DNA from: Candidatus Omnitrophota bacterium
GTDB lineage: Bacteria > Omnitrophota > Gorgyraeia > B26-G9
Assembly: GCA_043814605.1 (NCBI GenBank)
Contig: JBDRJV010000037.1
Span: 99,902 to 163,901, forward strand
Length of the DNA stretch: 64,000 nucleotides
Reading direction: 5' to 3'
Shown: positions 2,299 through 37,146 of the stretch, one piece after another
Position numbering within the stretch: position 1 is the first letter of the stretch
Layout: each line of letters starts with the position of its first letter
The notes under the pieces: model-generated
What the model was told of the DNA's origin: nothing
Seen by the model: only the letters and a program-made list of their open reading frames with translations
The model's database searches: none
Made by a program: the position numbers and the translations under genes

Positions 2299-2333
2299 AT
2301 GGTAAAGGGAAAAAAGTTGAAGGGAATAATTAA

Positions 2334-3284: not shown

Positions 3285-3305
3285 AAATTCTGGGAGTAAT
3301 ATTTT

Positions 3306-5425: not shown

Positions 5426-5444
5426 AAATCAGGTTAATGACTAA

Positions 5445-6410
5445 ATGAAAGATAGTGTAAATATTCTGGTTATTGATGATGAAGTTAGTATTCTGGATTC
5501 ATTCTCGCAACTGTTTACACAAGAAGGGTATAAGATTGTTCGCGCTAAAAGCTGGTTTGAAGCAGCACAACTTCTAACGATGCAGAGCTTTAATATAGTT
5601 ATTGCTGATGTACGGTTGCCAGATATTGGGTATAAACAGATGCTGGAAAAAATTAGAGAAGAAAATAAATATTCATTTATTATTTCGACTGCGGGATTTT
5701 CAGATATTGAAATTGCAATGGAATCTGTTTCTCAAGGTGCGAATGATTATTTTAGTAAACCGTTTGATCCATCTGATATAAAGATAACAATTCGTAAAAT
5801 TATTGAAAAGCAGCGCTTACATGCAGATAATGTGCAATTATTTGATACAATAAAAATACTGGCTTTGGCATTAGATGCACGAGATCATTATACACACGGA
5901 CATTCAGAACAGGTGACTGAATATGCAGTATCTATAGCCCAGGAAATGGGTTTAAGTGTTCAGGAGATCGATCGGATTAGAGATGCAGGCATTTTACATG
6001 ATATTGGAAAAATTGGCATTCCGGATGCAGTTTTATTAAAACCCGGACCATTAAATGATGAAGAATATGCGTTAATTAAAAAACATCCTTCAATCGGGAG
6101 AAAAATCCTTGAACCGGTTAATTGTTTAGCAGATAAGGTGCCGCTTATTTATCATCATCATGAACATTTTGATGGCCAGGGATATCCGGAAGGATTGAAG
6201 GCAGAATCAATACCGGTTGGCGCAAGAATTTTGGCTATTGCTGATGCTTATCAGGCCATGACTTCAGATCGTCCTTACCGGAAGGCATTATCAATAGAAG
6301 TTGCTGTAGATGAGTTAATCAAAAATAAAAACAAACAATTTGATGGTCGTATCGTTGATGTTTTCCTGAATATATTAAAAAGAACAGGGAAATTAGATTT
6401 TCTAAAATAA
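5445..6410 (+). CDS. response regulator, REC + HD-GYP phosphodiesterase (RpfG-like)
   Basis: REC domain with DD...D...K pattern. C-terminal HD motif (HDIGKIGIP) and HHHEHFDGQGYPEG, an HD-GYP signature. Confidence 0.8.
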   Translation: MKDSVNILVIDDEVSILDSFSQLFTQEGYKIVRAKSWFEAAQLLTMQSFNIVIADVRLPDIGYKQMLEKIREENKYSFIISTAGFSDIEIAMESVSQGANDYFSKPFDPSDIKITIRKIIEKQRLHADNVQLFDTIKILALALDARDHYTHGHSEQVTEYAVSIAQEMGLSVQEIDRIRDAGILHDIGKIGIPDAVLLKPGPLNDEEYALIKKHPSIGRKILEPVNCLADKVPLIYHHHEHFDGQGYPEGLKAESIPVGARILAIADAYQAMTSDRPYRKALSIEVAVDELIKNKNKQFDGRIVDVFLNILKRTGKLDFLK

Positions 6411-6528
6411 AAAAAGGGATTGATCATATTAATTTATACTGACTTACACAGCTTACTAATCATTTGCAGATTAATCTGCGTAAGAAGTATTTAATCAATT
6501 TAATTGTATTTAAAAAAAAGGAGAAGAA

Positions 6529-7626
6529 ATGGAACTTGATATTATTGAAATACTAAGGACTATGGTTAAACTCGGCGCTTCGGATGCTCATTTTAAAGTA
6601 GGAAGGGCCCCTATATTCCGAATTAAAAAAGAACTGACCAGTTCATCTTTCCCAATTATGAATAATAAGGACATTGAAAAAATTGCCTACTTTATGATGC
6701 GGGAGCGTCACCGCAAAGAATTTGAAAAGAAAAATGAAATTGATTTTTCTTATCAATTGCCGGAAATCGGCAGATTCAGGGTTAATGTTTTCCGGCAACG
6801 GGGTGATATCGGTATGGTGATGCGGATTGTAAAAAATCAAGTCCCCAGTTTTGAAGCCTTAACTTTACCTCCGATATTTAAGAAAATCGCGATGTTTGAA
6901 CGAGGTATAGTTTTAATTACCGGGGCGAGTTCTCAAGGTAAATCAACAACGCTAGCGGCAATTATCGATTATATTAACAAAAATAAAAAGTGTCATATCA
7001 TGACGATAGAAGATCCCATAGAGTATATTCATGAAGACCAGCAGGCCTTAATTAATCAAAGAGAAGTTGGCTTAGATACAGAGTCTTTTCATTTAGCTTT
7101 GCGTTACGTAATTCGCCAGGATCCAGATATAATTTTAATCGGAGAAATGCGTGATGCAGAAACATTTCAGACTGCATTATCCGCAGCTGAAACCGGGCAT
7201 CTTGTTTTTGCTACATTACATGCTTCGGATACTTCGCAAGTAGTGGATAGAATATTAGATTTTTTCCCAACGGCACAACATGATATGATTAGAATGCAAT
7301 TAGCTTTTAATTTACGTGCGGTGAGTTCTCAACGTCTCATGCCACGAGTCGATGGGACAGGTGTGGTGCCGGCGATTGAAGTAATGATTATTAACCCCAC
7401 AATTATGAAGTTGATCCGGGAAAATAAAACGGACAGATTATCCAGCACTTTACAAGCCTTTACCAAAGAAGGTATGATCACATTTAATCAATCTTTAGTT
7501 AATCATGTCAAAGCTAATCTGGTGAGTTTAGAAACAGCTTTAGCCAATTCTAGTAATCCGGAAGCGTTGAAAATGAACCTTAAAGGTATTTATTTAGATG
7601 AGGATCGTAGAATTTTAGGTGAATAA
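6529..7626 (+). CDS. pilT: type IV pilus retraction ATPase PilT
   Basis: PilT N-terminal block and Walker A GASSQGKSTT. 365 aa. Confidence 0.85.
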   Translation: MELDIIEILRTMVKLGASDAHFKVGRAPIFRIKKELTSSSFPIMNNKDIEKIAYFMMRERHRKEFEKKNEIDFSYQLPEIGRFRVNVFRQRGDIGMVMRIVKNQVPSFEALTLPPIFKKIAMFERGIVLITGASSQGKSTTLAAIIDYINKNKKCHIMTIEDPIEYIHEDQQALINQREVGLDTESFHLALRYVIRQDPDIILIGEMRDAETFQTALSAAETGHLVFATLHASDTSQVVDRILDFFPTAQHDMIRMQLAFNLRAVSSQRLMPRVDGTGVVPAIEVMIINPTIMKLIRENKTDRLSSTLQAFTKEGMITFNQSLVNHVKANLVSLETALANSSNPEALKMNLKGIYLDEDRRILGE

Positions 7627-9025
7627 TTTTTCGTCAATCAATTCGAGTAAAGCATATCGAGAGATAAATACAATTCAGCGAAAAAAGAGTTCCCGTTTTC
7701 GGGTAGCTCTGATTTATCCAAACTCATATGAGTTAGGTATGAGTAATTTGGGTGTGCATACGATTTATGATTGTTTTAACAAAAGAACGGATACTCTTTG
7801 TGAACGATTTTTTTACGAATCAGAAAAATCTCCGTTATTGTCTATTGAAACCAAAAGTCCGCTTAAGTTCTTCGATATTTTAGCTTTTTCAATTTCCTAC
7901 GAATTAGATTATATTAATTTTTTTAAAATTCTAAAAAAAATCGGTTTATTGAATAAAGCTAATTTGCGTTCAGCCATGCCGCTGATTCTTGTGGGAGGAG
8001 TCGTGACTGCAAGCAATCATTTGCCGCTTTCTAAATTTAGTGATGTAATTTTTAAAGGGGAAGCAGAGGAATCTTTAGATTTTTTTATGGATAGATTGTC
8101 TGAGTTTACTTTAATAAATTCAAAGCAGAAAAAAATCCAGTTTTTTAATCAATTCCCGAAAACAAAAGGCGTGTATATTCCCAGCCAAAAACTCACTAGG
8201 GATATTCCGATAAGCTATTTAGAAGATGTAAATAAATTCCCGACAGCATCAAAAATCATTACCCCTGAGACTGAATTTTCAAATATTTTTTTAGTGGAAA
8301 TTTCCCGGGGGTGTCCGCAGGGTTGTAATTTTTGTGTAACCGGGGCTGTGTATGCTAAATTCCGCCCCAGGAGATTAGAGATTTTAAAAAACCAAATTGA
8401 ATTTGGTTTAAAGATAACAAAAAAGATCGGGCTTGTCGGTGCGGCGATAACAGAATATCCGCAGTTAAAACAACTTTTAAAATTTCTTAAAGAAAAAAAT
8501 ACAAAAATTTCTGTTTCTAGTCTGCGGGTTGAAAGTGTTATTCCAGAATTACTCACAGCATTAAGTGAGTCTGGGCAAAATGCAGTTACCTATGCTCCGG
8601 AAGCAGGTTCAGATAGATTAAGGCGATTTTTAAATAAAAAAATAACGAATAAACATATCATCGAAAAAATTAAATCAGCAAAAAAATGCGGTATAAAAAA
8701 ATTAAAGTTATATTTTATGATCGGCTTACCACAGGAAAAAGCAGAGGATATTGAGAAAATAGTAGAATTAGTGAGAAAAGCTGCTTTAATTATGCCGGTT
8801 CGGGTTAATGTCGGGATTTTTGTGCCCAAGCCGCAGACTAACTTTTCAACATATAAAGTAGAAAAAAAATTTTTATTACTGAGTAAACTAAAAATCCTCG
8901 AAAAACAATTTAGAAAGCTTAAAAATGTAATTTTTAATAAGCCAAGTATTAAAGAAGCAATTCATGAATTCGAATTTTCCCACGCGGATGAGAACTTTTT
9001 TGATAACTATTTGAAAAATTTATAG
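7619..9025 (+). CDS. B12-binding-domain radical SAM protein
   Basis: CPQGCNFC (Cx3Cx2C) radical-SAM cluster motif after an N-terminal B12-like domain. Confidence 0.7.
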   Translation: MNNFSSINSSKAYREINTIQRKKSSRFRVALIYPNSYELGMSNLGVHTIYDCFNKRTDTLCERFFYESEKSPLLSIETKSPLKFFDILAFSISYELDYINFFKILKKIGLLNKANLRSAMPLILVGGVVTASNHLPLSKFSDVIFKGEAEESLDFFMDRLSEFTLINSKQKKIQFFNQFPKTKGVYIPSQKLTRDIPISYLEDVNKFPTASKIITPETEFSNIFLVEISRGCPQGCNFCVTGAVYAKFRPRRLEILKNQIEFGLKITKKIGLVGAAITEYPQLKQLLKFLKEKNTKISVSSLRVESVIPELLTALSESGQNAVTYAPEAGSDRLRRFLNKKITNKHIIEKIKSAKKCGIKKLKLYFMIGLPQEKAEDIEKIVELVRKAALIMPVRVNVGIFVPKPQTNFSTYKVEKKFLLLSKLKILEKQFRKLKNVIFNKPSIKEAIHEFEFSHADENFFDNYLKNL

Positions 9026-9063: not shown

Positions 9064-9098
9064 TTGACAAAAGCCATAATTATATGGTAATATTTAAC
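9064..9098 (+). promoter_or_regulatory. sigma70-like promoter (TTGACA - 18 - TAATAT) upstream of the sensor kinase operon
   Basis: TTGACA at 9064, then an ~18 nt spacer and TAATAT. Lies in the 115-bp intergenic gap before 9141. Confidence 0.4.
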
Positions 9099-9140: not shown

Positions 9141-10496
9141 ATGGGCAACAAATTGATTTTAGCTTTTGGAGTTTTAAGCCTGATTTTTTTAGTAATCATA
9201 ATTAGTTCTCATAGTATATTTCATTACAATCATACAGTACAAGATCAGAAGGAAAAAGCCTGGGTTTTAGGCAATACCCTGGCAAAATCCCTGGAATTGC
9301 CCATGCTTGAGGGAAAAATGAACACACTTCAAGAAATGCTGGTTACGGTGGGAGAACTAGAAAATTTTGAAAGAGTTCATTTAACCGATGATCAAGGGAT
9401 GATTCGTTATAGTTCAATTCCCGAAAGAATTAATACTCCGACAGGCTCAATAATCATTAAGCAAGCTTTAAAAGAAAGAAAATCTATTGGTAATTTTGAG
9501 CAGCGAGGTGATGATTATATTTTTAGCTTGGCTTTACCGATTTTAAATGAGCCGCGCTGTTATAACTGTCATGGTCAAAAAAAGGATATTTTGGGAGTTT
9601 TGCGTATCGGGATTGACTGGGCGCCAATGAAGAAAACACTTTCAAAGGTATTACAAAGAGATGTTTTTGTTTCCCTGATTTTTTATATCGTCATTATTTT
9701 ACTCTCTTTTCTTTTTCAACGCCTTTATACAAATGCACAGATTGCACTAAATAGTTTTAAACAAGCCCAGGAGCAGTTAATTAAAACAGAAAAAATGGCG
9801 GCAGTAGGACAAATGGCCGCCGCAATCAGCCATGATTTAAGAAATCCTTTAACCGGCATAAAAATGGCGACCTATTATTTGAACAGCAAAATTGACGAAA
9901 ATAATATTGAACAGCAGAATATTTTAAAGGATATTGAATTAGAAATTAATTATGCTAGTAATGTGGTAACTAATATTTTGACATATTCTCGGCCTACAGA
10001 TTTAATATTTTCGCGCAGTAATATTAATAAAATTATTGAAGAAACAATGAATTTTATTCATTTGCAAAATCGTGATGCATCTTTTGAAATTATTAAAAAT
10101 TACGACTTAAATTTACCGGAAATATTTATCGACAATAAACAAATAAAACAGGTAATTATTAATGTTATTTCGAATGCGATTCAAGCTATGCCGAAAGGTG
10201 GCCAGCTAAAAATAAGCACGCGGACAAATGGCAGTTTTATTGAAATTATTATTGAAGATTCAGGTGTGGGTATTCCCAAAAAAGTTTTAGAAAATATTTA
10301 TACGCCGTTTTTTACAACCCGGGCTCGAGGAGTGGGGTTAGGATTGTCAATTGTCAGTAACATTGTTAAAAAGCACGGTGGGCAAACTCAAATAAGCAGT
10401 ACTTTAGGCAAAGGAACAAAGTTTATAGTTAGATTGCCAATTTTTCAAGATATTGAAAATAAAAGGATGTTAGAACATGACAGTGAAGAAAGTTGA
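9141..10496 (+). CDS. membrane sensor histidine kinase with periplasmic CxxCH (heme c) motif
   Basis: Two TM segments flank a ~140-aa periplasmic domain containing CYNCHG. HisKA H-box ISHDLRNPL. HATPase_c motifs (G1/G2 boxes). Confidence 0.8.
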   Translation: MGNKLILAFGVLSLIFLVIIISSHSIFHYNHTVQDQKEKAWVLGNTLAKSLELPMLEGKMNTLQEMLVTVGELENFERVHLTDDQGMIRYSSIPERINTPTGSIIIKQALKERKSIGNFEQRGDDYIFSLALPILNEPRCYNCHGQKKDILGVLRIGIDWAPMKKTLSKVLQRDVFVSLIFYIVIILLSFLFQRLYTNAQIALNSFKQAQEQLIKTEKMAAVGQMAAAISHDLRNPLTGIKMATYYLNSKIDENNIEQQNILKDIELEINYASNVVTNILTYSRPTDLIFSRSNINKIIEETMNFIHLQNRDASFEIIKNYDLNLPEIFIDNKQIKQVIINVISNAIQAMPKGGQLKISTRTNGSFIEIIIEDSGVGIPKKVLENIYTPFFTTRARGVGLGLSIVSNIVKKHGGQTQISSTLGKGTKFIVRLPIFQDIENKRMLEHDSEES

Positions 10497-11337
10497 TAAA
10501 TTAATACAAACAGCAAAAAATCTGCAATCGTTATTAAAAGAGCTTATTTTCTGTATTGACGATATTAATGAAGTTCAGGCACAGGCGTTAGTGGCAGCCA
10601 TTGATGAAAAATTTAAAATATCAGATAATAATTGTGATATAAATAGTTCTTCTTTGCGGTCAATGCATTCAGAACGTTTAGCAGCTATGGGGCAAATGGC
10701 CGCAGCGATTAGCCATGAGTTACGTAATCCTCTAAGCGGTATCAAGGTAGCGGCAGAATATTTAATGCGAAAATTTGCTACTCAACAGGATGCTATGGAT
10801 ATTATTAATAACATCCATAATGAAGTTATTTTTGCGAATAATATTATTGCTAATCTCCTGCAACATGCCCGCATTGGTAAACCAGTGCGGGAACGAGTAA
10901 ATATAAAAAACTTGGTTGAAGAAGCAATTCTTGCAATTGCTCAGCAAGGGTCTTTTAATAACATAAAAATTAAAAGAAAGATTCAAGATAATTTGCCGCA
11001 GTTATTATTGGATCCGATGCAAATCAGGCAGGTTTTTATGAATCTTTTTATTAATTCTGCCGAAGCAATGATTGGCGGTGGAACATTAAACATTCGAATT
11101 GCAAAAAAAACGGATAAAGTTGTTATCCAAATAATTGATACAGGCTGCGGTATTGACCAGAACTGTTTAGATAAATTATTTGAGCCTTTTTTCTCAACAA
11201 AAATTAAAGGTATTGGGCTAGGGTTGGCGATTACGCGAGAAATTGTCGAAAATCATAATGGACAAATAAACGTTGATAGTAAAAAAGATAAGGGTACGAT
11301 GTTTACAATATCTTTTCCCGTAAATATTAAAAAATAA
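10477..11337 (+). CDS. cytoplasmic histidine kinase
   Basis: H-box ISHELRNPL and HATPase_c (DTGCGI, GLGL). No TM segment. Overlaps the upstream kinase. Confidence 0.75.
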   Translation: MTVKKVDKLIQTAKNLQSLLKELIFCIDDINEVQAQALVAAIDEKFKISDNNCDINSSSLRSMHSERLAAMGQMAAAISHELRNPLSGIKVAAEYLMRKFATQQDAMDIINNIHNEVIFANNIIANLLQHARIGKPVRERVNIKNLVEEAILAIAQQGSFNNIKIKRKIQDNLPQLLLDPMQIRQVFMNLFINSAEAMIGGGTLNIRIAKKTDKVVIQIIDTGCGIDQNCLDKLFEPFFSTKIKGIGLGLAITREIVENHNGQINVDSKKDKGTMFTISFPVNIKK

Positions 11338-11362: not shown

Positions 11363-11740
11363 GTGGGTAAAAAAAAATCAAGGATACTAATTGTTGATGA
11401 TGAAGTTGTCATCAGAGAGACGATAAAAAAAATTCTGGTAGATGAAGGGTTTGAGGTTTTAAGTGCCGAAAATGGAATATCAGCGTTTTCGATTGTTGAA
11501 AATAATGAGATTGATATTGCATTGTTAGATATAAGAATGCCGGATATCAATGGAGTTGAGCTGTTAGAGAAGATTAAAGTTGTCAACCCGGGGATAAAAG
11601 CAATAATGATGACAGGATATGAGGTAGAAAGTTTGGTTAATGATGCTTTTAGTCAGGGGGCGCATGCTTGTTTACATAAACCTTTTGAAATTAATAAACT
11701 GTTAGAAATTTTTGAAGAATTAGGTCCGAAAAATGAATAA
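11363..11740 (+). CDS. single-domain response regulator (CheY-like REC)
   Basis: ILIVDDE...D...K REC signature. 125 aa. Confidence 0.8.
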   Translation: MGKKKSRILIVDDEVVIRETIKKILVDEGFEVLSAENGISAFSIVENNEIDIALLDIRMPDINGVELLEKIKVVNPGIKAIMMTGYEVESLVNDAFSQGAHACLHKPFEINKLLEIFEELGPKNE

Positions 11741-13160
11741 ACTAGAAAAAAAAGCAAAAATTCTGCTTGTTGATGATGAAGCTGTAATCAGAGAAACACT
11801 TTGTTCGATTTTAAAGGAAGATGGTTATGAAGTAATTACGGCAAAAAGTGGACATGAAGCAGTTAATTTAAGCGGCAAATCCCATTTGGATATCGCAATT
11901 ATTGATCTAAAATTACCGGATGTTGACGGAACTTTTGTTTTACACAATATAAAAAAGCACAATCCTAATATTTGCGCAATTTTAATTACGGCTTATCCCA
12001 CAACCGAATCGGCAATTCGAGCGGTTCAAGAAGAAGCTTATGAATATATCACAAAGCCGTTTGATATCGGACATGTAAAACTGGTGATCAAGCGGGGGTT
12101 AGAAGAAAAAAGATTGGAGCAGGAAAACAAAAAATTATTAGTTAGTTTAAAGAGTGAAAAGCAAAAACTTCAAACAATGCTTCAAATTGGCCATGCAATG
12201 AGTTCAATTTTAAACCTGGATGAATTAGTTGATTTCATTGTCAGAAAAATTGCGGATGTATTACAAGCGAAAATATGTTCTTTAATGCTTTTGGACGAAG
12301 AAGAATTTTTAGTAATCAAGGCGGCAGTGGGTTTAGACGAATTAATTATGAAAACAACCAGAATTAAACTGGGAAGTTCGATCAGCGGCTGGGTGGCTTT
12401 AAATGGCGAGCCGGTTTTAGTTACCGACATTGAAAATGATTTAAAATTCGGACGTACAAATTTGCCTAAATACCAAACAAAGTCTTTGCTTTGTATTCCG
12501 CTTAAAGTTAAGGATAATGTTTTAGGGGTAATTAATATTGCGGATAAAATAGTCCCTCACCAGGAAAATACATTTACGGAAGAAGATTTAAAATTTCTTG
12601 CGGTTGTGTGCAATTATGCGGCAATTGCAATTGAAAATGCACAGCTTTACGGCGAAGTTAAAAATTTAGCAATTACAGATGGATTAACAAGTTTATTTAA
12701 TCACCGCTATTTTCAAACCCATCTTGGTTCTGAAGTTAGCCGTGTACAGCGTTATCCGCATCCGTTATCTTTAATTATGTTTGATATTGATTCTTTTAAA
12801 CAATTTAACGATACTTATGGCCATCCGATGGGAGATGCGGTGTTAAGTCAAATCGCTAAGGTTATCAAAAGTAAAGTACGTAAAGTAGATATTCCTTGTC
12901 GTTACGGAGGAGAAGAATTTGCGATAATTCTTCCAGAGACTAAACTTTCAGAGGCAGTCATTGTTGCGGAGAAAATTAGAAAATCAGTCGAAGAATTAAG
13001 ATTTGATGTCGGCAAAGGTACTCAGAAAAAGAAAATGACACTAAGCGGTGGCGTTGCCGGGTTTAAATCCGGCATGAGTAAAGAAGAATTTGTGCAAAAT
13101 GCAGATGAATCACTTTATGAGGCTAAGGATAAAGGCAAAAACAGAATTTGTGTACATTAA
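11733..13160 (+). CDS. response regulator REC-GAF-GGDEF diguanylate cyclase
   Basis: N-terminal REC and a central GAF-like region. C-terminal GGDEF motif RYGGEEFAIILP. Confidence 0.8.
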   Translation: MNKLEKKAKILLVDDEAVIRETLCSILKEDGYEVITAKSGHEAVNLSGKSHLDIAIIDLKLPDVDGTFVLHNIKKHNPNICAILITAYPTTESAIRAVQEEAYEYITKPFDIGHVKLVIKRGLEEKRLEQENKKLLVSLKSEKQKLQTMLQIGHAMSSILNLDELVDFIVRKIADVLQAKICSLMLLDEEEFLVIKAAVGLDELIMKTTRIKLGSSISGWVALNGEPVLVTDIENDLKFGRTNLPKYQTKSLLCIPLKVKDNVLGVINIADKIVPHQENTFTEEDLKFLAVVCNYAAIAIENAQLYGEVKNLAITDGLTSLFNHRYFQTHLGSEVSRVQRYPHPLSLIMFDIDSFKQFNDTYGHPMGDAVLSQIAKVIKSKVRKVDIPCRYGGEEFAIILPETKLSEAVIVAEKIRKSVEELRFDVGKGTQKKKMTLSGGVAGFKSGMSKEEFVQNADESLYEAKDKGKNRICVH

Positions 13161-21350: not shown

Positions 21351-21406
21351 CCTGAGGTTTATTATAATTAAATAAAAGGCAATAATTAAATTAAGCGAGG
21401 TACTTA

Positions 21407-22793: not shown

Positions 22794-25748
22794 ATGAAAA
22801 AATGTGTTGCTTATACTGATATTAAATTAGTAAAATTTTTTTTGTTTTTTGACTTAATAGTTTTTATATTTATATTTAGTTCTAATATTTTTGCTCAAGA
22901 AACTTCTCCGGTTAAATTCACAATTTCGGACAAGATTTTAGGAGGAGGGGATTGGCAGGCAACGTGCCTTTTAAATAAATTAAAATTTAATGTTAACGAT
23001 GATTTAACGTTAACTATAAATCTCACCATAAATTCTCGCGAATTTTTAAAATATAGGGATAATTTAAAAGAATTAAAGCTTATTCTTTCGGCGGAACGGA
23101 TTTTTGATTCTCAAGGAAGGCCGCATTTAATAAATAATAATTTTATGTCTACGGTTCTAACGCCAAGCGGCATGCCAATAGAATCATTTTCTTGGACTGG
23201 GGCCGGGACTAAACAAACTATTTTTCCGAAAAGACATAACTTTACGGATATATGTTTATCGAAGTTAAAACACGAAATTGATTTTTCAAAAAATATTATA
23301 ACCCTGAAGTATGAAGTTAAGAAAAAAATCCCTTTCGATTTACCAGAAGGCTATTATCGGTTTCAATTAGATATTCGGGCTGCTTATGCTCAGGAAAATG
23401 ATCAGACAGTAGAAGATAGGTTAACATTGATTGGCCGATTGCGGCTTAAGCCTGAACAATATACACATATTCCTTTTCATGATCAATTGCCATTTTCTCA
23501 AAAAGCATACACATTACCGGTTTTTAGAGTAGGCAATCCAAAAGCGCCTAAAATGATTTGGTCTTTGTTTACGGATCAAATTTTTATGGGAACACAGGGG
23601 ATCATAGCTGAAGAAGATAAACTTTATTTTAAAATCAGCCCACGTCATAGTATTTCGGATCGTTTTATTATTCCTTTAAACAAAACACTAAATTTAGAAC
23701 CAGATTTTCCCACATTGTTTCTGGATCGCGCGCAAGTTTCTTTTGTTGAGCCGATTCTGCCTTTTTGTGTGCCGATACCTTTGGATTATAAAAGCGGTGA
23801 ATTTTCTGTTAAAATCTTGACCCCAAAGGGAAAACAGGAAGATTTAGGAAAAAGTTTTTTTAAACAAGAATCTTTGACCGGAGCAAGTTCGGGGACAGAC
23901 AAATACCAGTACTGTTTTAATCAATATGGTAAATATGAAATAGAGTTAACCGGTGGGATTAACGATATCTGGGGTAATAAATATCAAGGCGGAGGTAAGT
24001 ATTTTCTCTGGGTTGCGAACCGATTGAGTTTTGCCACGAGTGTGAAGCCCGGCGCACCTTTTGAAGTCGGAGATTCTTACCCTAGTTCTGTTTTTATTCA
24101 TCCCCCAGTTCCCGCTCAAGTTAAAATTGATTTAAGTCAATATATAAACTCAAATAAAGAAAATGTTGAAAATTGGCAACTAAAAGGACAAGCTAATCGT
24201 TTTGGATATTTTTGCACTAAGGAAAAAATAACTTTTAAAAATCCCGGAGAGTATTTTGTCCGGATAAGTGCGGATTATACAGACAGTCACGGAACTTTGT
24301 GGATTGGTAATCAGGTGGGCGCTTGTGTAATTGCTCCGATTAATTCAAAATTAATTGTACACGGTAAAAAATTTAAACGCCCTTTTGATTCTTTTAGTGT
24401 ACCTAAAGCTAGGTTTAATTTGCAGGATGAAGGCCGTTTTTATCAAGATGAACAGCTTGAACCGGAAACAATAGATCACACAAATTGTATTAATTTACCA
24501 TTACCTTATTACAGCGGAGACGTAATGTTTATTGCCAGCACTCCGGATAGTGCTAATGCTATTGATGCTACTCTTACTGCAGAGGTATCCGGAGAGGATT
24601 TAAAAACTCTTTTTGAAAATAATGCTTATAACTATGATTTTCCGGAAAAGATAAAACAGCAGTCATATTTTTTTGCCTCAGCGATTCGTCCCGGTATAGT
24701 AACCCGTACTTTTATTGCGGATTCGACGATGATTTTTCGAGACTCCTATTGGCCGACTTCTCCGGCTTTTAATACTTTTGGCAATCAATTTAACACTAGT
24801 TTATATGGTGATTATCCCCAGGATATATATCGTTTTATGGGAGGATTTGTTTATAAAAATTTAGAAGAAAATATTATAGATTATGGTATTTATGCCTCAA
24901 TGGCAATTATTCTGCCAAAAGGTTCTTATGCAAATCGCATAGTTGCTCCGTTAAGTGAGCCGTTAATTGAGGTTAATGGCCGGGAATTTTCTATTTTTGA
25001 AGCCGGAGCTCCGTCTCAAGGAGTAATTTATGAGACCGGGGATTTTTTGGGTATCGGAGGTATGGTCTTCCCCCCCATTGCGGATATAAATTGCACAAAA
25101 AAGATTATATATCCGGATGGCCAAGAAAAAATTTCACAAGGAATTAGTAATAAAATCGGAATTTTGAAAATGACTCCATCGGTTTTGGTTGCAGATCAGC
25201 CGGGAATTTATAAGATTCAGCAAAAATGCTGGCATAATGATAAAACCGGTGATGTGTTAGGAACTAGTGATGGAACCTATAATATTTATGTAGATGATCG
25301 AAACACAAAAAAATATTTTCATTTTAAAAATCCCCGGTATTTTTATTTTGATGCCAAAACAGGATTAGATATTAAAGCTGCAGTTTCGCGTGAGATCCAA
25401 AACCCTAAAATTACTTATAGCATTATAATGCCGGGATGTGTGATGGATGAAGGGACACTGCCGGTTGAAAATTATGCGTTTGGTTATAAATTTATGCCGC
25501 AGGAATTTAATATTCAATTTCCTAATTATGATTTTTATGATTTTCCAGATAAAAATACCCCGAGTTATGTAAGATTACCGGATCTTGATAAATTTAATCC
25601 CGAAAATATTAAACTTGTTGACTTAGTAATGATGACCTTTTTTTTAGAAGGTACGGATAAAAATACGCAGGAAAATATATATGATGTTTCAACAATAATG
25701 CTCAGAGGCAATAAAGTTTTTATTAAGGCATACAATAATGATTATTAA
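22794..25748 (+). CDS. large secreted hypothetical protein (984 aa, signal peptide)
   Basis: Hydrophobic N-terminus ending AQE. No recognisable catalytic motifs. Preceded by an extended -10 TGCTATAAT. Confidence 0.55.
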   Translation: MKKCVAYTDIKLVKFFLFFDLIVFIFIFSSNIFAQETSPVKFTISDKILGGGDWQATCLLNKLKFNVNDDLTLTINLTINSREFLKYRDNLKELKLILSAERIFDSQGRPHLINNNFMSTVLTPSGMPIESFSWTGAGTKQTIFPKRHNFTDICLSKLKHEIDFSKNIITLKYEVKKKIPFDLPEGYYRFQLDIRAAYAQENDQTVEDRLTLIGRLRLKPEQYTHIPFHDQLPFSQKAYTLPVFRVGNPKAPKMIWSLFTDQIFMGTQGIIAEEDKLYFKISPRHSISDRFIIPLNKTLNLEPDFPTLFLDRAQVSFVEPILPFCVPIPLDYKSGEFSVKILTPKGKQEDLGKSFFKQESLTGASSGTDKYQYCFNQYGKYEIELTGGINDIWGNKYQGGGKYFLWVANRLSFATSVKPGAPFEVGDSYPSSVFIHPPVPAQVKIDLSQYINSNKENVENWQLKGQANRFGYFCTKEKITFKNPGEYFVRISADYTDSHGTLWIGNQVGACVIAPINSKLIVHGKKFKRPFDSFSVPKARFNLQDEGRFYQDEQLEPETIDHTNCINLPLPYYSGDVMFIASTPDSANAIDATLTAEVSGEDLKTLFENNAYNYDFPEKIKQQSYFFASAIRPGIVTRTFIADSTMIFRDSYWPTSPAFNTFGNQFNTSLYGDYPQDIYRFMGGFVYKNLEENIIDYGIYASMAIILPKGSYANRIVAPLSEPLIEVNGREFSIFEAGAPSQGVIYETGDFLGIGGMVFPPIADINCTKKIIYPDGQEKISQGISNKIGILKMTPSVLVADQPGIYKIQQKCWHNDKTGDVLGTSDGTYNIYVDDRNTKKYFHFKNPRYFYFDAKTGLDIKAAVSREIQNPKITYSIIMPGCVMDEGTLPVENYAFGYKFMPQEFNIQFPNYDFYDFPDKNTPSYVRLPDLDKFNPENIKLVDLVMMTFFLEGTDKNTQENIYDVSTIMLRGNKVFIKAYNNDY

Positions 25749-26478
25749 TATTTTAAAATTTTTATATAAAATTATATTTACTTTTCATATGGCGTTGATT
25801 TTGTTTATTATTTTAGTTGTTTTGCTTGTTCCTAAAATGAAGTTTCAGTTTTCATTCTCATCAAATCATGATTTTATTAAACAAAATTGTTACAGTTGTC
25901 ATGATTTAAAGCGAATTTTTTACTTTCAAAAAACTAAAGAGCAATGGCATAATACTGTAAAAAGGATGCGGGATAAAACTGCCGCAGAAATACCTGAAGA
26001 GAAGCTTAAAAAAATAACAGAGTTATTAGCTGATAATTACGGAGTTGATCGAGAAAAATTATTTAAGCAATTGTGCATTAAATGCCATTCTCAGATTAAT
26101 AAAAAGGAACTTTTATATGTTAAGCAAACAAAAGAGGATTGGAAAAATGCAATAGAAAGAATGCGCTGGCGATTTAATTTTCTGATTGGAGCAGATCAGG
26201 CAAAAGAGATTTACAAATATTGGACGGATCTAAAAAATAATGCCAATTTAGAATTAGATGATAAAAATCAAGACCAAAACAAAATTGTTTTTGAAAAGAA
26301 GTGTCTGCGTTGTCATACATACAGGTTTATTAAAAATCCGCCGCGTTTAAAACAAGAGTGGGAAGGTATTTTCAGCCGGATGCGGCTTAAATATAGCAGT
26401 TGGATAACGCAAGAGGATAATCAAAGCATAAAAAGTTATATTTATAATAAAAAGAACAAATTTTTAATACAAAATTAA
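25738..26478 (+). CDS. membrane-anchored tri-heme c-type cytochrome (three tandem CxxCH repeats)
   Basis: CYSCHD, CIKCHS and CLRCHT each start a ~65-aa repeat with a conserved W...RMR pattern. N-terminal TM anchor. Overlaps the upstream ORF by 11 nt. Confidence 0.7.
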   Translation: MIINILKFLYKIIFTFHMALILFIILVVLLVPKMKFQFSFSSNHDFIKQNCYSCHDLKRIFYFQKTKEQWHNTVKRMRDKTAAEIPEEKLKKITELLADNYGVDREKLFKQLCIKCHSQINKKELLYVKQTKEDWKNAIERMRWRFNFLIGADQAKEIYKYWTDLKNNANLELDDKNQDQNKIVFEKKCLRCHTYRFIKNPPRLKQEWEGIFSRMRLKYSSWITQEDNQSIKSYIYNKKNKFLIQN

Positions 26479-27608: not shown

Positions 27609-28445
27609 TTACTCTGAGATATTCCTGTCCAGACTACGGTATTGGATTGCCTCGGATATATGATCGGGGGAAATATTTTCCATGCCGGACAAATCAGCAA
27701 TAGTCCTGGCCACCTTTAAAATCTTATCATATGCTCTGGCGGATAACCCCAGCTCATCAATGGCCATTTTTAAAAGGTTTTTTGATTCGTTATCAATATT
27801 ACAATACTTTTTAATTTGCTTATGAGACATATAAGCATTGGCAAAAATGTCGTCTTTTTTAAAACGCTTAAACTGAATCGTTCGTGTTTGATTAACACGT
27901 TTTCTGATTTGTTCTGAAGATTCAGTTATTGGCTCATCAATGAGTTGTTTATAATTGATCGGGGGCACTTCGATATGAATGTCAATCCTGTCTAATAATG
28001 GCCCGGATATTTTCGCACGGTATTGCTCAATACGGTAGGGCGTACACCGGCAAACTTTTGTCGGATGAGTAAAAAACCCGCACGGACAAGGATTCATAGC
28101 ACAAACCAGCATAAAACGGGCTGGAAAACTAACCGTTCGCGCGGCACGGGAAACAGTAACAAATCCGTCTTCCAATGGCTGCCTTAAGGCTTCCAGTACA
28201 TTACGGTTAAACTCAGGCAGTTCATCTAAAAAAAGAATTCCATGATGTGCTAAACTAACTTCTCCGGGCCGAGGATTTGAGCCGCCGCCAACTAACGCAA
28301 TATCACTGGTTGTATGGTGCGGAGCACGAAAAGGCCGGGTTCCGATTAGAGCCTGATTGGCTTTAAGTAATCCGTTAATACTATAAATTTTTGTGGTTTC
28401 CAGTGATTCATCCAAACTAAGCGCAGGAATAACTGTTGGGATTCT
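27609..28445 (-). pseudogene. comM: comM/yifB Mg-chelatase-like competence protein, C-terminal fragment (gene disrupted by insertion)
   Basis: Homology to ComM resumes at RIPTVIPALSLDE...HHTTSD. The fragment carries no Walker A. The N-terminal half lies 8 kb away at 36446-37146. Confidence 0.8.
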
Positions 28446-30058
28446 TTGTTTAACTCGTAATGATTTGATGATTCTATTTCTTTCTGATATTCTGCTAAAC
28501 ATAGTAAATCAAAATCTCCCTTTAGTTCTATGTCCCAACCTGTTGTTTCATTATAACCTAACACGATTTCATTGACAATAAGTCTTATGAGCTTATCTTT
28601 TTCCTCTTTAGAATTGAAATTATCTAAATTCTTACTCATTGCAATCAGTATCTTTTCTAATTCTTTAATTTTCAAAGAGAAATGTTGTTTATCTGATAGT
28701 CTAGTTTTTAAAATTTTAGTTTGCTTTTCAAATTCTAATTTCTTAACCCTATGTTCCTCTGAAAGTTCGTCTAACATTTTTTCACTAAATTTTCCAGAAG
28801 CATATTGGGTAAGTAGTCTTTTGATAGCATTATCACAAAAATTAATTTCCTTTTCCAATGATAAAATTTTGGTTTCTATTTCTAATTTATTAACAAAGCT
28901 GTTGTTTTCATGATGTGAAATAGCTGATTTGAGAGTATCTTTAGACTTCATCAATTGGCAAATAACAAACCAAACCTTATTAAATAGTAAATCCGCATTT
29001 ATTGGGGGTAAATCACATTTTTTGTTATCAGGGTGGTATTTAAACTCTTTTCTAATATATCGGTTATAACAAGCATAGCTTTTATGCCAATAGGATTTCT
29101 CGCCATATTTTTTCCTGTCAATCCAAGATATTCTGCCAATAACATGCTTACCACATCTGGAACATGTTAAAAGATTTTTTAATGGTATGAACTTATTGGG
29201 GATACTTCTTCTGTGTGTTGCTCTTCTGTTTTCTTTAAGCTTTCTCAAAAGTAAGTCCCTTTTTTGTTTTGTGATTAAAGAGGGAATAGAGACACCTGTA
29301 ATGCCATTTTTATCGTTATCTTTGCCAAGGTAGAAGGGATTATGGAATATTCCTAAAAGTGTATGGTTTTGCCAATGTAATATTCGTTTTCTTTGGAAAT
29401 TTTGACCCTCTCTAGCTGTGGGGATTCCTATCCTGTTTAGCTCCAAACAAATATCTCTTGCAGATTTACCTTCTAAATACCAATCAACCATTTTGTGATA
29501 TATTTTTGCCTTTTCCTCGTCTATCTCAAAACATCTACGTTTTCCTTTAGTAACTGTTTTATATCCATAAGGTAACATATGTCCTGTGAAATAGCCTTCT
29601 TTTTTGAGATTTCGCTTTGCTTTTACTCTTCTTTCAATATCCTCAGAAGTTTGTTTGCCTGTGACTGTTGAGTATATCCCTAACATCATTTTGTCGCTAC
29701 CATTTTCTAAATCATAAATTTTATTGCCAACAATTAGCTGGGTTATCTTTTTACCATAAAGCAAATGTTGAATAAATTCACCTCTTACAAATTCATTCCT
29801 ACTTAATCTTTCCATATTCCAATACGCTGGAATATCTCCCTCTTGTAGAGAGTCTAAAATATCAAGTAAATCAGGTCTATCTTTTAAAAATTTGGGCTCT
29901 GTGCTGGATTGAGTATATTTTTTGATAACAATTTCATAATTCCTAAAAGCTGGGATACTTTTTGCAAAGCTTATGATGTCATTCTCTTGAACTTCTATCC
30001 CTTGACCTTGTTCTTGTGGTTTGCTACTTATTCTAGTAACAGCAAATATTTTAGCCAT
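28346..30058 (-). CDS. large serine recombinase (integrase)
   Basis: N-terminal resolvase-type catalytic domain, then a recombinase domain, a zinc ribbon (CSRCGKHV) and a coiled coil. 570 aa. Strong RBS AAGGAGG. The last 33 codons lie left of the junction, in comM-derived DNA. Confidence 0.85.
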   Translation of the reverse strand: MAKIFAVTRISSKPQEQGQGIEVQENDIISFAKSIPAFRNYEIVIKKYTQSSTEPKFLKDRPDLLDILDSLQEGDIPAYWNMERLSRNEFVRGEFIQHLLYGKKITQLIVGNKIYDLENGSDKMMLGIYSTVTGKQTSEDIERRVKAKRNLKKEGYFTGHMLPYGYKTVTKGKRRCFEIDEEKAKIYHKMVDWYLEGKSARDICLELNRIGIPTAREGQNFQRKRILHWQNHTLLGIFHNPFYLGKDNDKNGITGVSIPSLITKQKRDLLLRKLKENRRATHRRSIPNKFIPLKNLLTCSRCGKHVIGRISWIDRKKYGEKSYWHKSYACYNRYIRKEFKYHPDNKKCDLPPINADLLFNKVWFVICQLMKSKDTLKSAISHHENNSFVNKLEIETKILSLEKEINFCDNAIKRLLTQYASGKFSEKMLDELSEEHRVKKLEFEKQTKILKTRLSDKQHFSLKIKELEKILIAMSKNLDNFNSKEEKDKLIRLIVNEIVLGYNETTGWDIELKGDFDLLCLAEYQKEIESSNHYELNKESQQLFLRLVWMNHWKPQKFIVLTDYLKPIRL

Positions 30059-30297
30059 TTAATACCTCCTTTTTAAACATAATGCTGAGAGGGGAGAGAT
30101 AAAGAGAGGGGAGAGTGACAAAGAATAATCGATTATATATCCGATGATAATATCCCACATAGTGATATCCTCTTACATCAGGTTACTAATACTTGATAAT
30201 CAGCCATTAGAGCTATGTTATTCAAATAGATAGGACAAAGTATATCCTTAAAACTAAAAACGCGATACTACCTTGATACAGCTTTAATTCTAGTAAT

Positions 30298-30705
30298 TTA
30301 ATCTTTATCTGTTGACTGTTTTGAATTAGATTTGAAAAATAGGCTTAAAAAGTCATGCATTCTAGACTTCCAACCATTTTTATTTAATGTGTTCACATCT
30401 TCAGCGGAATATTTATATAAACTATCTTCAGATGAGTATGCGGATATTAACCTCTGAGAATTATATTTACCCTTATACAGAGCCAAAAACGGAAACTCGT
30501 GTAACCATTTCAATGTTTTAGCAGATTGAGCAGTCTGGATATGAGTTTTGCTGAAGCTTTCTTCATTTAAATACCACTCTAGGACATCTTTAACATTCAA
30601 AAGTTTCTCTCTTTTTTTTTGTAAGGGTATAACACGCTTTAATTGCTCATCAATCTCGAAGATTTCCTGTTCTAATTTAACCAAAGATATGTTATTCAAA
30701 AGCAT
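30298..30705 (-). CDS. hypothetical protein (135 aa)
   Basis: ORF in an operon with two upstream small ORFs. No recognisable motifs. Confidence 0.4.
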   Translation of the reverse strand: MLLNNISLVKLEQEIFEIDEQLKRVIPLQKKREKLLNVKDVLEWYLNEESFSKTHIQTAQSAKTLKWLHEFPFLALYKGKYNSQRLISAYSSEDSLYKYSAEDVNTLNKNGWKSRMHDFLSLFFKSNSKQSTDKD

Positions 30706-30707
30706 AG

Positions 30708-31270: not shown

Positions 31271-31293
31271 TTATTATCTTTCCATTTTATGTT

Positions 31294-36359: not shown

Positions 36360-36447
36360 ATTAACCTCCTAACTTACTCAATATTATATGCTACTATTAT
36401 GAATAAAGCCAATTTTTTCCATAATGTTGTGTTGGGTGAATAAAAGG
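36360..36447 (-). promoter_or_regulatory. promoter/5'UTR cassette copy B, ending at the element's right boundary
   Basis: TTGGCT-18-TATAAT. The upstream box CCTTTTATTCACCCAACACAACATT abuts the GGGATTCT core. Confidence 0.45.
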
Positions 36448-37146
36448 GATTCTACGTGCGAGCATTGTTTTGCCTGAACCTGGAGGGCCGATGAGTAAAA
36501 TATTATGATTCCCTGCAACCGCGACCTCTAAGGCACGTTTGGCAAATTCCTGGCCCTTGACATCAGACATATCTGTTGTATAGTGAGCAAATTTCTTTAA
36601 TTCAATATCAGGATTTGCTTTTTGTGGGGCGATATCAATTTCCTGATTGAGAAAAGCCACTGCCTGGGTTAAAGAATCAATGGGATATACAGAAGAATTA
36701 CTCACAACAGCAGCTTCTTGAGCATTTTCACTGGCAACTAAAATATTTTTATGCTGGTCTCTGATTCCTAAGACCATAGAGAGAATACCTTTAATTGGCT
36801 TGATTGTCCCATCTAAAGATAATTCTCCCATAATCAAAAAATCATTTAACCGGCTTTTATTCAATATGGAGCTTGCCGCAAGAATTCCTAAAGCAATCGG
36901 TAAATCATAAGCAGATCCCTGCTTCTTCGTATCTGCCGGGGCCAGATTTATAGTTATTTTTTTTACCGGAAAATTAAATCCAGAGTTTTTTATAGCTGAA
37001 CGGACTCTATCTTTAGATTCTTTTACCGCGTTATCCGGCAATCCTACAACGGATATTTGCGGTAAGCCGCGTCCAATATCCACTTCAATTTCCAGTAAAT
37101 GACCTTGGATTCCGGAAACAAAAGCGCTGAAAATTTTTGCTAACAT
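36446..37146 (-). pseudogene. comM: comM/yifB N-terminal fragment (Walker A GPPGSGKT), truncated by the insertion
   Basis: [24 protein letters not shown]...[15 protein letters not shown], then homology ends at the core. After the core the frame reads [15 protein letters not shown] and stops at 36397. Confidence 0.8.

What the first reader, a model, noticed from the sequence alone, without database searches (positions are those of the whole stretch)
9141..10496. Sensor histidine kinase with a periplasmic c-type heme (CxxCH) binding motif
Between the two TM helices, the ~140-aa extracytoplasmic domain carries a single CYNCH motif at nt 9558-9572. This is the signature of covalent heme c attachment, as in Geobacter-type heme-PAS periplasmic sensors. 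A tri-heme cytochrome c is encoded 15 kb downstream, so cytochrome c maturation is presumably available. Together with the adjacent second kinase, CheY-like REC and REC-GAF-GGDEF, this looks like a redox-to-c-di-GMP signalling relay.
Basis: partly seen in the sequence, partly recalled or inferred. Interest (0 to 1): 0.55.

Follow-up and report, generated by a model that had tools for sequence, protein, structure and literature searches.

The report
Periplasmic heme-c sensor kinase, Omnitrophota
This gene encodes a membrane sensor kinase whose outward-facing domain belongs to a known family that carries a covalently bound heme and senses redox state or gases such as NO; it is a new, previously unlabelled member of that family in a poorly known phylum.

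Summary
ORF 9141-10496 encodes a 451-aa histidine kinase. Two membrane helices flank a roughly 150-aa outside domain, and that domain holds a single CYNCH motif at nt 9558-9572. These are the only two cysteines in the protein.

The motif is not chance. An exhaustive search found 218 related cluster representatives. The CxxCH is invariant in about 186-188 of 188 aligned domains, together with one methionine (Met55).

A profile of the family matches the Geobacter heme-c sensor domains GSU0935 (E=1e-16) and GSU0582 (E=3.6e-14). Met55, Cys140, Cys143 and His144 align with the GSU0935 heme ligands and attachment sites Met60, Cys140, Cys143 and His144. The AlphaFold model (pLDDT 93.5) is a single Cache fold, with the CxxCH on a short helix between two strands. 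GSU0935 is the top structural match.

This is the published heme-PAS / "sCache_heme" family (Pfam PF21563). The host is a Candidatus Omnitrophota MAG, where NCBI calls the protein only "ATP-binding protein".

The gene order heme kinase, soluble paralogous kinase, (REC), REC-GAF-GGDEF is conserved in seven other Omnitrophota species, so a c-di-GMP output is likely but inferred. I could not check for a cytochrome c maturation system.

Verdict: real, well supported, a new member of a known kind.

The parts
9064..9093 (+). Promoter-like site (TTGACA, 18 nt, TG-TAATAT) in the 115-nt gap upstream of the kinase
   Evidence: Best consensus match in the region, 10 of 12 positions with an extended-10 TG. 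The total number of such sites in the region does not exceed the shuffles, so this is only suggestive.
9141..10496 (+). Sensor histidine kinase HK1 (451 aa): TM1, heme-c sCache domain, TM2, HisKA, HATPase_c. No HAMP domain.
   Evidence: Identical to NCBI MFH1460467.1, 'ATP-binding protein', from a Candidatus Omnitrophota MAG.
9153..9212 (+). TM1 / signal anchor (about residues 5-24)
   Evidence: Kyte-Doolittle peak of 2.87. It is part of one continuous helix, residues 2-56, in the model.
9213..9665 (+). Extracytoplasmic sCache_heme sensor domain (residues 25-175)
   Evidence: AF2 pLDDT 93.5. Foldseek top hit is 3b42_B, followed by the WalK, KinD, CitA and DcuS Cache domains. The family profile matches 3b42 at E=1e-16 and 3b47 at E=3.6e-14. 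PF21563 scores 25.1 bits, just under the 27-bit cut-off.
9303..9305 (+). Met55 codon, the predicted distal axial heme ligand
   Evidence: Met in 184 of 186 aligned family domains. It aligns with chain residue 26 of 3b42, which is Met60 of GSU0935 (numbering from PMC8396549). It sits at the end of the helix that is continuous with TM1.
9558..9572 (+). CYNCH heme-c attachment motif (Cys140, Cys143, His144)
   Evidence: Across family domains: C 188/188, C 186/187, H 186/187. It lies on the short helix 138-144 between two beta strands. It aligns with Cys140, Cys143 and His144 of GSU0935.
9666..9728 (+). TM2 (about residues 176-196)
   Evidence: Kyte-Doolittle peak of 2.66. It is part of one continuous helix, residues 161-250, that runs into the DHp domain.
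9804..9995 (+). HisKA / DHp domain. The phospho-acceptor His231 codon is at 9831-9833.
   Evidence: PF00512 at 48.4 bits. H-box SHDLRNP, His at residue 231.
10131..10442 (+). HATPase_c catalytic domain
   Evidence: PF02518 at 92.3 bits.
10477..11337 (+). HK2: soluble 286-aa histidine kinase with no recognisable sensor domain. It is a paralogue of the HK1 kinase core and overlaps the end of HK1 by 20 nt.
   Evidence: 39% identity to HK1 over 221 aa, with a near-identical H-box helix. Conserved next to HK1 in six of seven relatives; the seventh contig ends before it.
11363..11740 (+). Stand-alone CheY-like receiver (125 aa)
   Evidence: PF00072 at 102.5 bits. Present in four relatives and absent in L005 and L006.
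11733..13160 (+). REC-GAF-GGDEF diguanylate cyclase (GGEEF active site, RxxD I-site). The likely output of the system.
   Evidence: Motifs RKVD....GGEEF. 74-76% identical and syntenic in six relatives. It overlaps the end of the REC gene by 8 nt.
5445..9025 (+). Conserved upstream neighbours: REC-HD-GYP (5445-6410), PilT ATPase (6529-7626) and a radical-SAM protein (7619-9025)
   Evidence: HHEHFDGQGYP. Same order in all seven Omnitrophota relatives. A functional link to HK1 is inferred only.
25738..26478 (+). Membrane-anchored tri-heme cytochrome c. Indirect evidence that the organism matures c-type cytochromes.
   Evidence: Three CxxCH motifs. PF09098 at 52.9 bits against a cut-off of 25.2.

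Best explanation
HK1 is a two-pass membrane histidine kinase. Its periplasmic domain is a single Cache domain of the GSU0935/GSU0582 type (Pfam PF21563, part of the 'sCache_heme' family). This domain would carry one c-type heme, bound through Cys140 and Cys143, with His144 as the proximal iron ligand and Met55 as a detachable distal ligand.

By analogy with the Geobacter domains, Met55 would bind the reduced iron (low spin). It would be released on oxidation, or displaced by NO (either redox state) or by CO (reduced state).

Met55 sits at the end of a helix that runs without a break into TM1. The C-terminal helix of the sensor runs without a break through TM2 into the His231-bearing DHp helix, and there is no HAMP domain in between. 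Ligand switching at the heme could therefore shift the two transmembrane helices relative to each other and set the kinase/phosphatase balance directly.

The phosphoryl group would then pass to the co-transcribed receivers: the stand-alone REC and, above all, the REC-GAF-GGDEF cyclase. This would convert periplasmic redox or NO status into a c-di-GMP level. The soluble paralogue HK2 would feed a second, cytoplasmic input into the same receivers.

Shown here: the motif, the topology, the fold, family membership by homology, alignment of the ligand residues, intact catalytic and receiver motifs, and conserved synteny.
Inferred: actual heme attachment, the nature of the signal, the direction of regulation, and the phosphotransfer partners.
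For: Motif and chance:
- These are the only two Cys in the protein. Chance expectation is 0.0012 per protein.

Family conservation:
- 218 cluster representatives at E<=1e-3. Of the 151 proteins held, 146 have CxxCH at the aligned site.
- Over 191 domains: C140 188/188, C143 186/187, H144 186/187, M55 184/186, and also P133, N136, G152.

Homology to solved heme-c sensors:
- Single sequence versus 3b42, E=0.024 with the CxxCH aligned.
- Family profile versus 3b42, E=1e-16, and versus 3b47, E=3.6e-14, both over the whole domain.
- All 49 aligned members hit PF21563.

Fold:
- AF2 pLDDT 93.5 with the CxxCH helix between strands.
- Foldseek top hit 3b42_B, followed by sCache sensors.

Topology and wiring:
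- Two hydrophobic segments.
- Continuous helices 2-56 and 161-250.

Ligand roles and behaviour of the reference proteins:
- PMC8396549: His144/Met60 ligation; high-spin ferric, low-spin ferrous; NO and CO displace Met60; potentials of -156 and -251 mV.
- PMC12889525: sCache_heme domains fused to signalling modules behave as NO sensors.

Operon:
- Overlaps or gaps of 20, 25 and 8 nt between the four genes.
- Synteny in seven Omnitrophota species at 62-70% identity, with M55 and CxxCH invariant.
- GGEEF, RxxD and the H-box are intact.

Periplasm and cytochrome c:
- Outer-membrane biogenesis genes (BamD, LptE, AsmA) are present in the window.
- A tri-heme cytochrome c is in the window.
- A 4xCxxCH ORF lies in a relative's genome, L078.
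Against: - The domain itself scores 25.1 bits against PF21563, below Pfam's 27-bit gathering threshold. The single-sequence match to 3b42 is only E=0.024. Membership therefore rests on the family profile.
- No cytochrome c maturation or heme biosynthesis gene is in the 64-kb window or in any fetched locus.
- Heme biosynthesis is reported in fewer than 75% of Omnitrophota genomes (PMC10066038).
- 71 of 78 relatives have a HAMP domain and this protein has none, so signal transmission may differ from that in characterised members.
- The pairing with a GGDEF protein is not seen in the Desulfobacterota relatives, so it cannot be generalised from the family.
- No experiment of any kind exists for this protein.
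Confidence: 0.78

Rival explanations
1. Same heme-c Cache kinase, but the physiological signal is nitric oxide (or CO) rather than ambient redox potential. NO would displace Met55 and switch the kinase, as in H-NOX/HnoK or NosP/NahK circuits that control c-di-GMP.
For: GSU0582 and GSU0935 bind NO in both redox states and CO when reduced, and both gases displace Met60 (PMC8396549). sCache_heme domains fused to signalling modules show NO-sensor kinetics and no stable O2 complex (PMC12889525). The output here is a c-di-GMP enzyme, as in known NO circuits.
Against: The NO-sensing protein characterised in PMC12889525 lacks a protein distal ligand, and water was proposed in that position. This subfamily keeps an almost invariant Met. 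The Geobacter literature favours a redox-linked Met on/off switch. No denitrification or NO-related gene lies in the window.
Confidence: 0.35
2. The domain has the Cache fold and the CxxCH motif but is not heme-loaded in this organism, for example because no maturation system is present. It would act as an apo or metal/thiol-based sensor, or as a relic.
For: No ccm/ccs genes were seen in the 64 kb or in the loci. Heme biosynthesis and cytochromes are patchy across Omnitrophota (PMC10066038).
Against: CxxCH and Met55 are invariant in eight Omnitrophota orthologues that are only 62-70% identical overall, which indicates selection on the heme site. A tri-heme cytochrome c with a Pfam-supported heme-binding domain is on the same contig. 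A tetra-CxxCH ORF lies in a relative. The absence of maturation genes from 64 kb of a genome says little.
Confidence: 0.08
3. An ordinary small-molecule-binding Cache sensor (such as the carboxylate sensors CitA and DcuS) in which the CxxCH is incidental.
For: The fold also matches the WalK, KinD, CitA and DcuS Cache domains.
Against: The CxxCH is invariant in about 188 homologous domains, including each repeat of the proteins with three tandem domains. The closest solved structures are the two heme-c domains. The chance expectation for the motif is 0.0012.
Confidence: 0.02

Closest known systems
Periplasmic heme-c sensor domains of the Geobacter sulfurreducens chemoreceptors GSU0935 and GSU0582 (PDB 3B42, 3B47; Pfam PF21563 Mcp40H-20_sensor)
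   Same: Same domain family by profile search (E=1e-16 and 3.6e-14) and by fold. Both lie in the periplasm between two TM helices. Both have the P-x-x-N-E-x-x-C-x-x-C-H signature. Met55, Cys140, Cys143 and His144 align with Met60, Cys140, Cys143 and His144.
   Different: The output here is a HisKA/HATPase_c kinase, not an MCP signalling domain. There is no HAMP domain. Sequence identity is only about 20-22%. The host is Omnitrophota rather than Desulfobacterota/Geobacter. The window's domain falls 2 bits short of the Pfam cut-off.
sCache_heme family (DUF3365/Tll0287-like, PF11845; Deshpande, Xing, Gumerov, Crane and Zhulin, bioRxiv 2026, PMC12889525)
   Same: An extracytoplasmic single Cache fold with a short inserted helix that carries an invariant CxxCH. 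The family is often fused to histidine kinases, MCPs and cyclic-nucleotide enzymes. That paper counts GSU0582 and GSU0935 as members.
   Different: The window's domain matches the Tll0287 profile only weakly (17.7 bits against a cut-off of 24.1). Tll0287-type members use Cys/His ligation or lack a protein distal ligand, whereas this subfamily has a conserved Met. Omnitrophota is not mentioned in that paper.
H-NOX/HnoK and NosP/NahK nitric-oxide circuits that control c-di-GMP (Shewanella, Vibrio, Pseudomonas; recalled from general knowledge, not tested here)
   Same: It works like these systems. A heme sensor controls a histidine kinase, which phosphorylates receiver domains fused to c-di-GMP enzymes. 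REC-HD-GYP and REC-GGDEF are both present here.
   Different: Those sensors are separate cytoplasmic heme-b proteins. Here the heme would be covalent (heme c), periplasmic and part of the kinase polypeptide. There is no sequence relationship.
DcrA of Desulfovibrio vulgaris, an MCP with a periplasmic c-type heme (recalled from general knowledge, not tested here)
   Same: A transmembrane signal transducer with a periplasmic CxxCH heme-c site, proposed to sense redox state or oxygen.
   Different: It has a chemoreceptor output. Its homology to this domain was not examined.

Membership tests
GSU0935/GSU0582-type heme-c sensor domain (Pfam PF21563; sCache_heme) | A canonical CxxCH motif at the family's conserved position | tested here: met
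   CYNCH at residues 140-144. It aligns with the invariant family column and with the RCQSCH of 3b42.
GSU0935/GSU0582-type heme-c sensor domain (Pfam PF21563; sCache_heme) | Significant sequence homology to the founding, structurally solved members | tested here: met
   The profile of 49 relatives, with the window sequence first, matches 3b42_A at E=1e-16 and 3b47_A at E=3.6e-14 across profile positions 7-138.
GSU0935/GSU0582-type heme-c sensor domain (Pfam PF21563; sCache_heme) | A score above Pfam's curated gathering threshold for PF21563 (27 bits) | tested here: not met
   22.6-25.1 bits depending on the fragment. All 49 relatives hit the model at E<0.01, the best at 7.4e-11. A 62%-identical homologue carries a precomputed PF21563 hit. 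This is a near miss of a formal cut-off, not evidence against homology.
GSU0935/GSU0582-type heme-c sensor domain (Pfam PF21563; sCache_heme) | A single Cache fold with the CxxCH on a short helix inserted between two late beta strands | tested here: met
   AF2 pLDDT 93.5. In domain numbering: helix 114-120 between strands 101-111 and 126-135. Foldseek returns 3b42_B first, then the WalK, KinD, CitA and DcuS Cache domains.
GSU0935/GSU0582-type heme-c sensor domain (Pfam PF21563; sCache_heme) | A distal methionine ligand equivalent to Met60 of GSU0935 | tested here: met
   Met55 is conserved in 184/186 domains. It aligns with 3b42 chain residue 26, which is Met60 when the +34 offset fixed by Cys140 is applied (PMC8396549).
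GSU0935/GSU0582-type heme-c sensor domain (Pfam PF21563; sCache_heme) | Extracytoplasmic location, as required for heme-c attachment | tested here: met
   Two hydrophobic helices flank the domain. Outer-membrane biogenesis genes are in the window. No dedicated topology predictor was available.
GSU0935/GSU0582-type heme-c sensor domain (Pfam PF21563; sCache_heme) | Covalently bound heme c actually present | not testable with these tools
   This needs expression, heme staining and a pyridine hemochrome assay.
GSU0935/GSU0582-type heme-c sensor domain (Pfam PF21563; sCache_heme) | The host genome encodes a cytochrome c maturation system (Ccm or Ccs) | not testable with these tools
   Only 64 kb of a 229,859-bp contig is available. 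No W-rich CcmC/CcmF/CcsA motif and no relevant Pfam family occurs in the window or in the 79 loci. Indirect support comes from the tri-heme cytochrome c in the window.
Class I (HisKA) two-component sensor histidine kinase | A HisKA domain with a phospho-acceptor His, plus a HATPase_c domain | tested here: met
   PF00512 at 48.4 bits, PF02518 at 92.3 bits. His231 lies in SHDLRNP.
Class I (HisKA) two-component sensor histidine kinase | A cognate receiver-domain partner | tested here: inconclusive
   REC and REC-GAF-GGDEF are co-oriented, overlapping or nearly so, and syntenic in the relatives.

The most novel reading that the evidence does not exclude
In this Omnitrophota lineage the heme-c Cache sensor has been rewired into a lineage-specific, HAMP-less module: heme kinase, soluble paralogous kinase, REC-GAF-GGDEF. 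The module sits in a fixed block with a REC-HD-GYP phosphodiesterase and the pilus-retraction ATPase PilT, directly after the cell-division (dcw) genes.

The module could let these ultra-small, possibly host-dependent bacteria read external redox state, or NO coming from a partner cell. Through c-di-GMP they would then switch type IV pilus-driven attachment or motility.
Probability: 0.15. Interest if true: 0.55.

Novelty: new member of a known kind. Interest (0 to 1): 0.3.

Why it matters
The finding gives a specific, testable function to a gene that public annotation calls only "ATP-binding protein". The gene sits in a candidate phylum with no cultured representatives and few known environmental sensors.

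It extends the heme-c Cache sensor family to Omnitrophota. It also shows a compact variant without a HAMP domain, in which the distal-ligand helix and the kinase helix are each predicted to be continuous with a transmembrane helix. That makes it a simple model for how a heme ligand switch is transmitted across a membrane.

The conserved pairing with c-di-GMP enzymes and PilT suggests how these organisms might couple redox or NO cues to surface behaviour.

The sensor family, its heme chemistry and its fusion to kinases are already published, so the finding adds to what is known rather than overturning it.

Tried and rejected
- Exact look-up of the kinase in the contig index found nothing. The organism was identified instead through the cluster look-up.
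- The word-indexed homology search returned only two fragments. The exhaustive HMMER search was needed.
- The 49-sequence alignment was too diverse for the search for related loci. A 10-sequence alignment worked.
- I searched for cytochrome c maturation genes with the W-rich motif W[GAS]xx[WFY]xW[DE]. This covered the six-frame ORFs of the window and all 79 loci. I also ran Pfam on nearly all window ORFs of 100 aa or more. Nothing was found.
- The Pfam scan of 121 full-length relatives exceeded the size limit. I repeated it with 78.
I used the database relatives instead.
- The Rfam gathering scan and the tRNA scan of the window found nothing.
- The promoter scan gives one good site upstream of HK1, but the number of sites in the region does not exceed the shuffles.
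- Chance occurrence of the CxxCH: rejected.
- An ordinary ligand-binding Cache domain: rejected.
- Membership of the Tll0287 (Cys/His) branch: rejected, because the match is weak and a Met is conserved at the distal-ligand position.
Full report
**1. The observation**

The ORF at 9141..10496 on the + strand is real and encodes 451 aa. The codons TGT TAT AAC TGT CAT lie at nt 9558-9572 and give C140-Y-N-C143-H144.

Kyte-Doolittle analysis finds two strongly hydrophobic stretches, about residues 5-24 and 176-196, bracketing residues 25-175. Pfam finds HisKA (222-285) and HATPase_c (331-434) after the second stretch. The H-box histidine is His231.

Cys140 and Cys143 are the only cysteines in the protein. 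With the amino-acid composition of the window's ORFs (C 1.25%, H 1.8%), a CxxCH is expected 0.0012 times in a protein of this size and 0.05 times in all about 19,100 codons. Four are seen, and the other three lie in one ORF.

That ORF, 25738..26478, has CYSCH, CIKCH and CLRCH, an N-terminal hydrophobic anchor and a PF09098 heme-binding match of 52.9 bits.

The neighbours are also as described:
- a 286-aa kinase at 10477..11337
- a 125-aa receiver at 11363..11740
- a REC-GAF-GGDEF protein at 11733..13160

**2. The motif is a family signature, not an accident**

The word-indexed search found only two fragments. An exhaustive HMMER search with residues 30-170 found 218 cluster representatives at E<=1e-3.

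Of the 151 proteins held, 146 carry CxxCH at the aligned place. Two of the five exceptions are truncated before that position, and two show a C-x4-CH variant. Nineteen proteins contain three tandem copies of the domain, each with its own CxxCH.

Over 191 aligned domains:
- C140 is conserved in 188/188
- C143 in 186/187
- H144 in 186/187
- M55 in 184/186
- P133, N136 and G152 are also nearly invariant

The signature is P-I-x-N-E-x-x-C-x-x-C-H-G.

**3. Which family**

Alone, the domain gives sub-threshold hits to PF21563 (25.1 bits, cut-off 27) and PF11845 Tll0287-like (17.7 bits, cut-off 24.1). It also gives a weak PDB hit to 3b42 (E=0.024) with the CxxCH aligned.

A profile of 49 family members settles the matter. 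It matches 3b42_A (GSU0935) at E=1e-16 and 3b47_A (GSU0582) at E=3.6e-14 over the whole domain, followed by the Cache domains of WalK, DcuS and CitA. All 49 members hit PF21563.

In that alignment the family's invariant Met pairs with chain residue 26 of 3b42, and the first Cys pairs with chain residue 106. Since that Cys is Cys140 in the published numbering, residue 26 is Met60. Met60 is the experimentally established distal ligand of GSU0935, and His144 is the proximal ligand (PMC8396549).

So Met55, Cys140, Cys143 and His144 of the window's protein correspond one-to-one to the heme site of GSU0935.

**4. Fold and topology**

AlphaFold2 on the domain gives pLDDT 93.5 and pTM 0.86. The model has a long N-terminal helix, a second helix, a five-stranded sheet, and a short helix that carries the CxxCH between the last two pairs of strands. 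This is the arrangement described for sCache_heme domains (PMC12889525).

Foldseek against the PDB returns 3b42_B first (E=1.3e-6). The large rmsd is expected, because the crystal form is a domain-swapped dimer. The WalK, KinD, CitA and DcuS Cache sensors follow.

The full-length model (pLDDT 91.9) shows one unbroken helix from residue 2 to 56. This covers TM1 and the sensor's first helix and ends at Met55. A second unbroken helix runs from residue 161 to 250. It covers the sensor's last helix, TM2, a linker, and DHp helix 1 with His231.

There is no HAMP domain, whereas 71 of 78 relatives have one.

The window also encodes BamD, LptE and AsmA homologues, so the organism has an outer membrane and a periplasm.

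**5. Organism and conservation of the locus**

The protein is identical to NCBI MFH1460467.1, [quoted passage not shown], on a 229,859-bp contig.

A scan of species-representative genomes found orthologues of the sensor domain at 62-70% identity in seven other MAGs. Six are labelled Omnitrophota and one is labelled Planctomycetia. The next relatives, at 28-41% identity, are almost all labelled Desulfobacterota, Deltaproteobacteria or Proteobacteria.

All seven close relatives share the gene order murC-murB-ddl-ftsQ-ftsA-REC-HD-GYP-pilT-radical SAM-HK1. Where the contig continues (six of the seven), it runs on as HK2-(REC)-REC-GAF-GGDEF, and the five longest loci continue to yggS-proC-ileS. The stand-alone REC is missing in two of them.

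Met55 and the CxxCH are invariant in all eight sequences. The association with GGDEF, PilT and radical SAM is not found next to the Desulfobacterota relatives, so the wiring is lineage-specific.

**6. The signalling module**

- HK1 and HK2 overlap by 20 nt.
- HK2 and REC are 25 nt apart.
- REC and REC-GAF-GGDEF overlap by 8 nt.
- One good sigma-70-like site lies in the 115-nt gap upstream of HK1, although such sites are not enriched in the region.
- HK2 has no sensor domain. It is 39% identical to the HK1 kinase core, with a nearly identical H-box helix.
- The cyclase has GGEEF and an RxxD I-site. The upstream REC-HD-GYP has HHExxDGxGYP.

Two PilZ proteins, PilT and a ComFB-CheR fusion are nearby.

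**7. Mechanism**

For GSU0582 and GSU0935, the literature (PMC8396549) reports:
- high-spin ferric and low-spin ferrous heme
- Met60 bound in the reduced state and released on oxidation
- NO binding in both redox states, and CO binding when reduced, both displacing Met60
- midpoint potentials of -156 and -251 mV

For sCache_heme domains fused to signalling modules, NO-sensor kinetics have been reported (PMC12889525).

I therefore propose that a Met55 on/off switch at a covalently bound heme moves the TM1 helix relative to TM2. This would set the activity of HK1 directly, and the REC-GAF-GGDEF cyclase would be the main output. Redox state and NO remain competing signals.

**8. What is not established**

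No cytochrome c maturation or heme biosynthesis gene is in the 64 kb or in any fetched locus. The rest of the genome could not be read.

Heme biosynthesis and cytochromes are patchy in Omnitrophota (PMC10066038). Indirect support comes from three things:
- the tri-heme cytochrome in the window
- a tetra-CxxCH ORF beside a paralogous heme kinase in a relative's genome (L078)
- purifying selection on the heme site across eight species

**9. Comparison and verdict**

This is a member, by homology and by every testable structural feature, of the GSU0935/GSU0582 heme-c sensor family. That family is now grouped under sCache_heme. The window's domain misses only Pfam's formal score cut-off, by 2 bits.

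Fusion of this domain to histidine kinases is already described. The new points are the host phylum, the HAMP-less direct-helix architecture, the tandem soluble paralogous kinase, and the conserved placement next to c-di-GMP enzymes and PilT.

I rate it a new member of a known kind, of modest interest (0.3).

Noticed in passing
window 27609-37146 (minus strand): The comM/yifB gene (Mg-chelatase-like) is split. Its N-terminal part (ChlI domain plus Mg_chelatase profile positions 1-49) is at 36397..37146. Its C-terminal part (profile positions 39-206 plus Mg_chelatase_C) is at 27609..28502. About 7.9 kb lies between them, holding a large serine recombinase (28346..30058) and a run of small minus-strand ORFs. 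This looks like an integrative element inserted into comM.
   Followed up: partly
window 14-6410; L001-L007: The cell-division cluster murC-murB-ddl-ftsQ-ftsA is followed directly by a REC-HD-GYP gene, not by ftsZ. The same holds in the six Omnitrophota relatives whose locus covers the whole cluster; in L006, which begins within ddl, the visible part (ddl-ftsQ-ftsA-REC-HD-GYP) agrees. Whether ftsZ lies elsewhere in the genome was not checked.
   Followed up: no
window 22794-26478: A 984-aa ORF with an N-terminal hydrophobic segment and no Pfam match overlaps the start of the tri-heme cytochrome c gene by 11 nt. This suggests a co-translated pair of unknown function.
   Followed up: no
window 5445-7626, 20250-22108, 47131-47517: The window has an unusual density of c-di-GMP and pilus signalling genes: REC-HD-GYP, PilT, a ComFB-CheR fusion, a PilZ domain fused to a membrane region, and a second small PilZ protein.
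   Followed up: partly
window 7619-9025: A radical-SAM protein with the Radical_SAM_N2 N-terminal domain overlaps the end of pilT by 8 nt. It is syntenic in all seven relatives. Its function is unknown.
   Followed up: no
L077 430-2175; L078 7231-7914 and 9740-11596: Two of the related MAGs carry a second, longer paralogue of the heme-c sensor kinase (582 and 619 aa). In L078, an ORF with four CxxCH motifs lies about 1.8 kb upstream of it.
   Followed up: no
proteins P0019, P0026, P0032 and 16 others: Nineteen family members have three tandem copies of the heme-c Cache domain, each with its own CxxCH. Two members replace CxxCH with a C-x4-CH variant (CSTAACH, CSGAACH).
   Followed up: partly
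window 1-64000: No tRNA gene and no Rfam family at gathering score occurs in the whole 64 kb. G+C is 33.3%, against 37-41% in the related loci.
   Followed up: no
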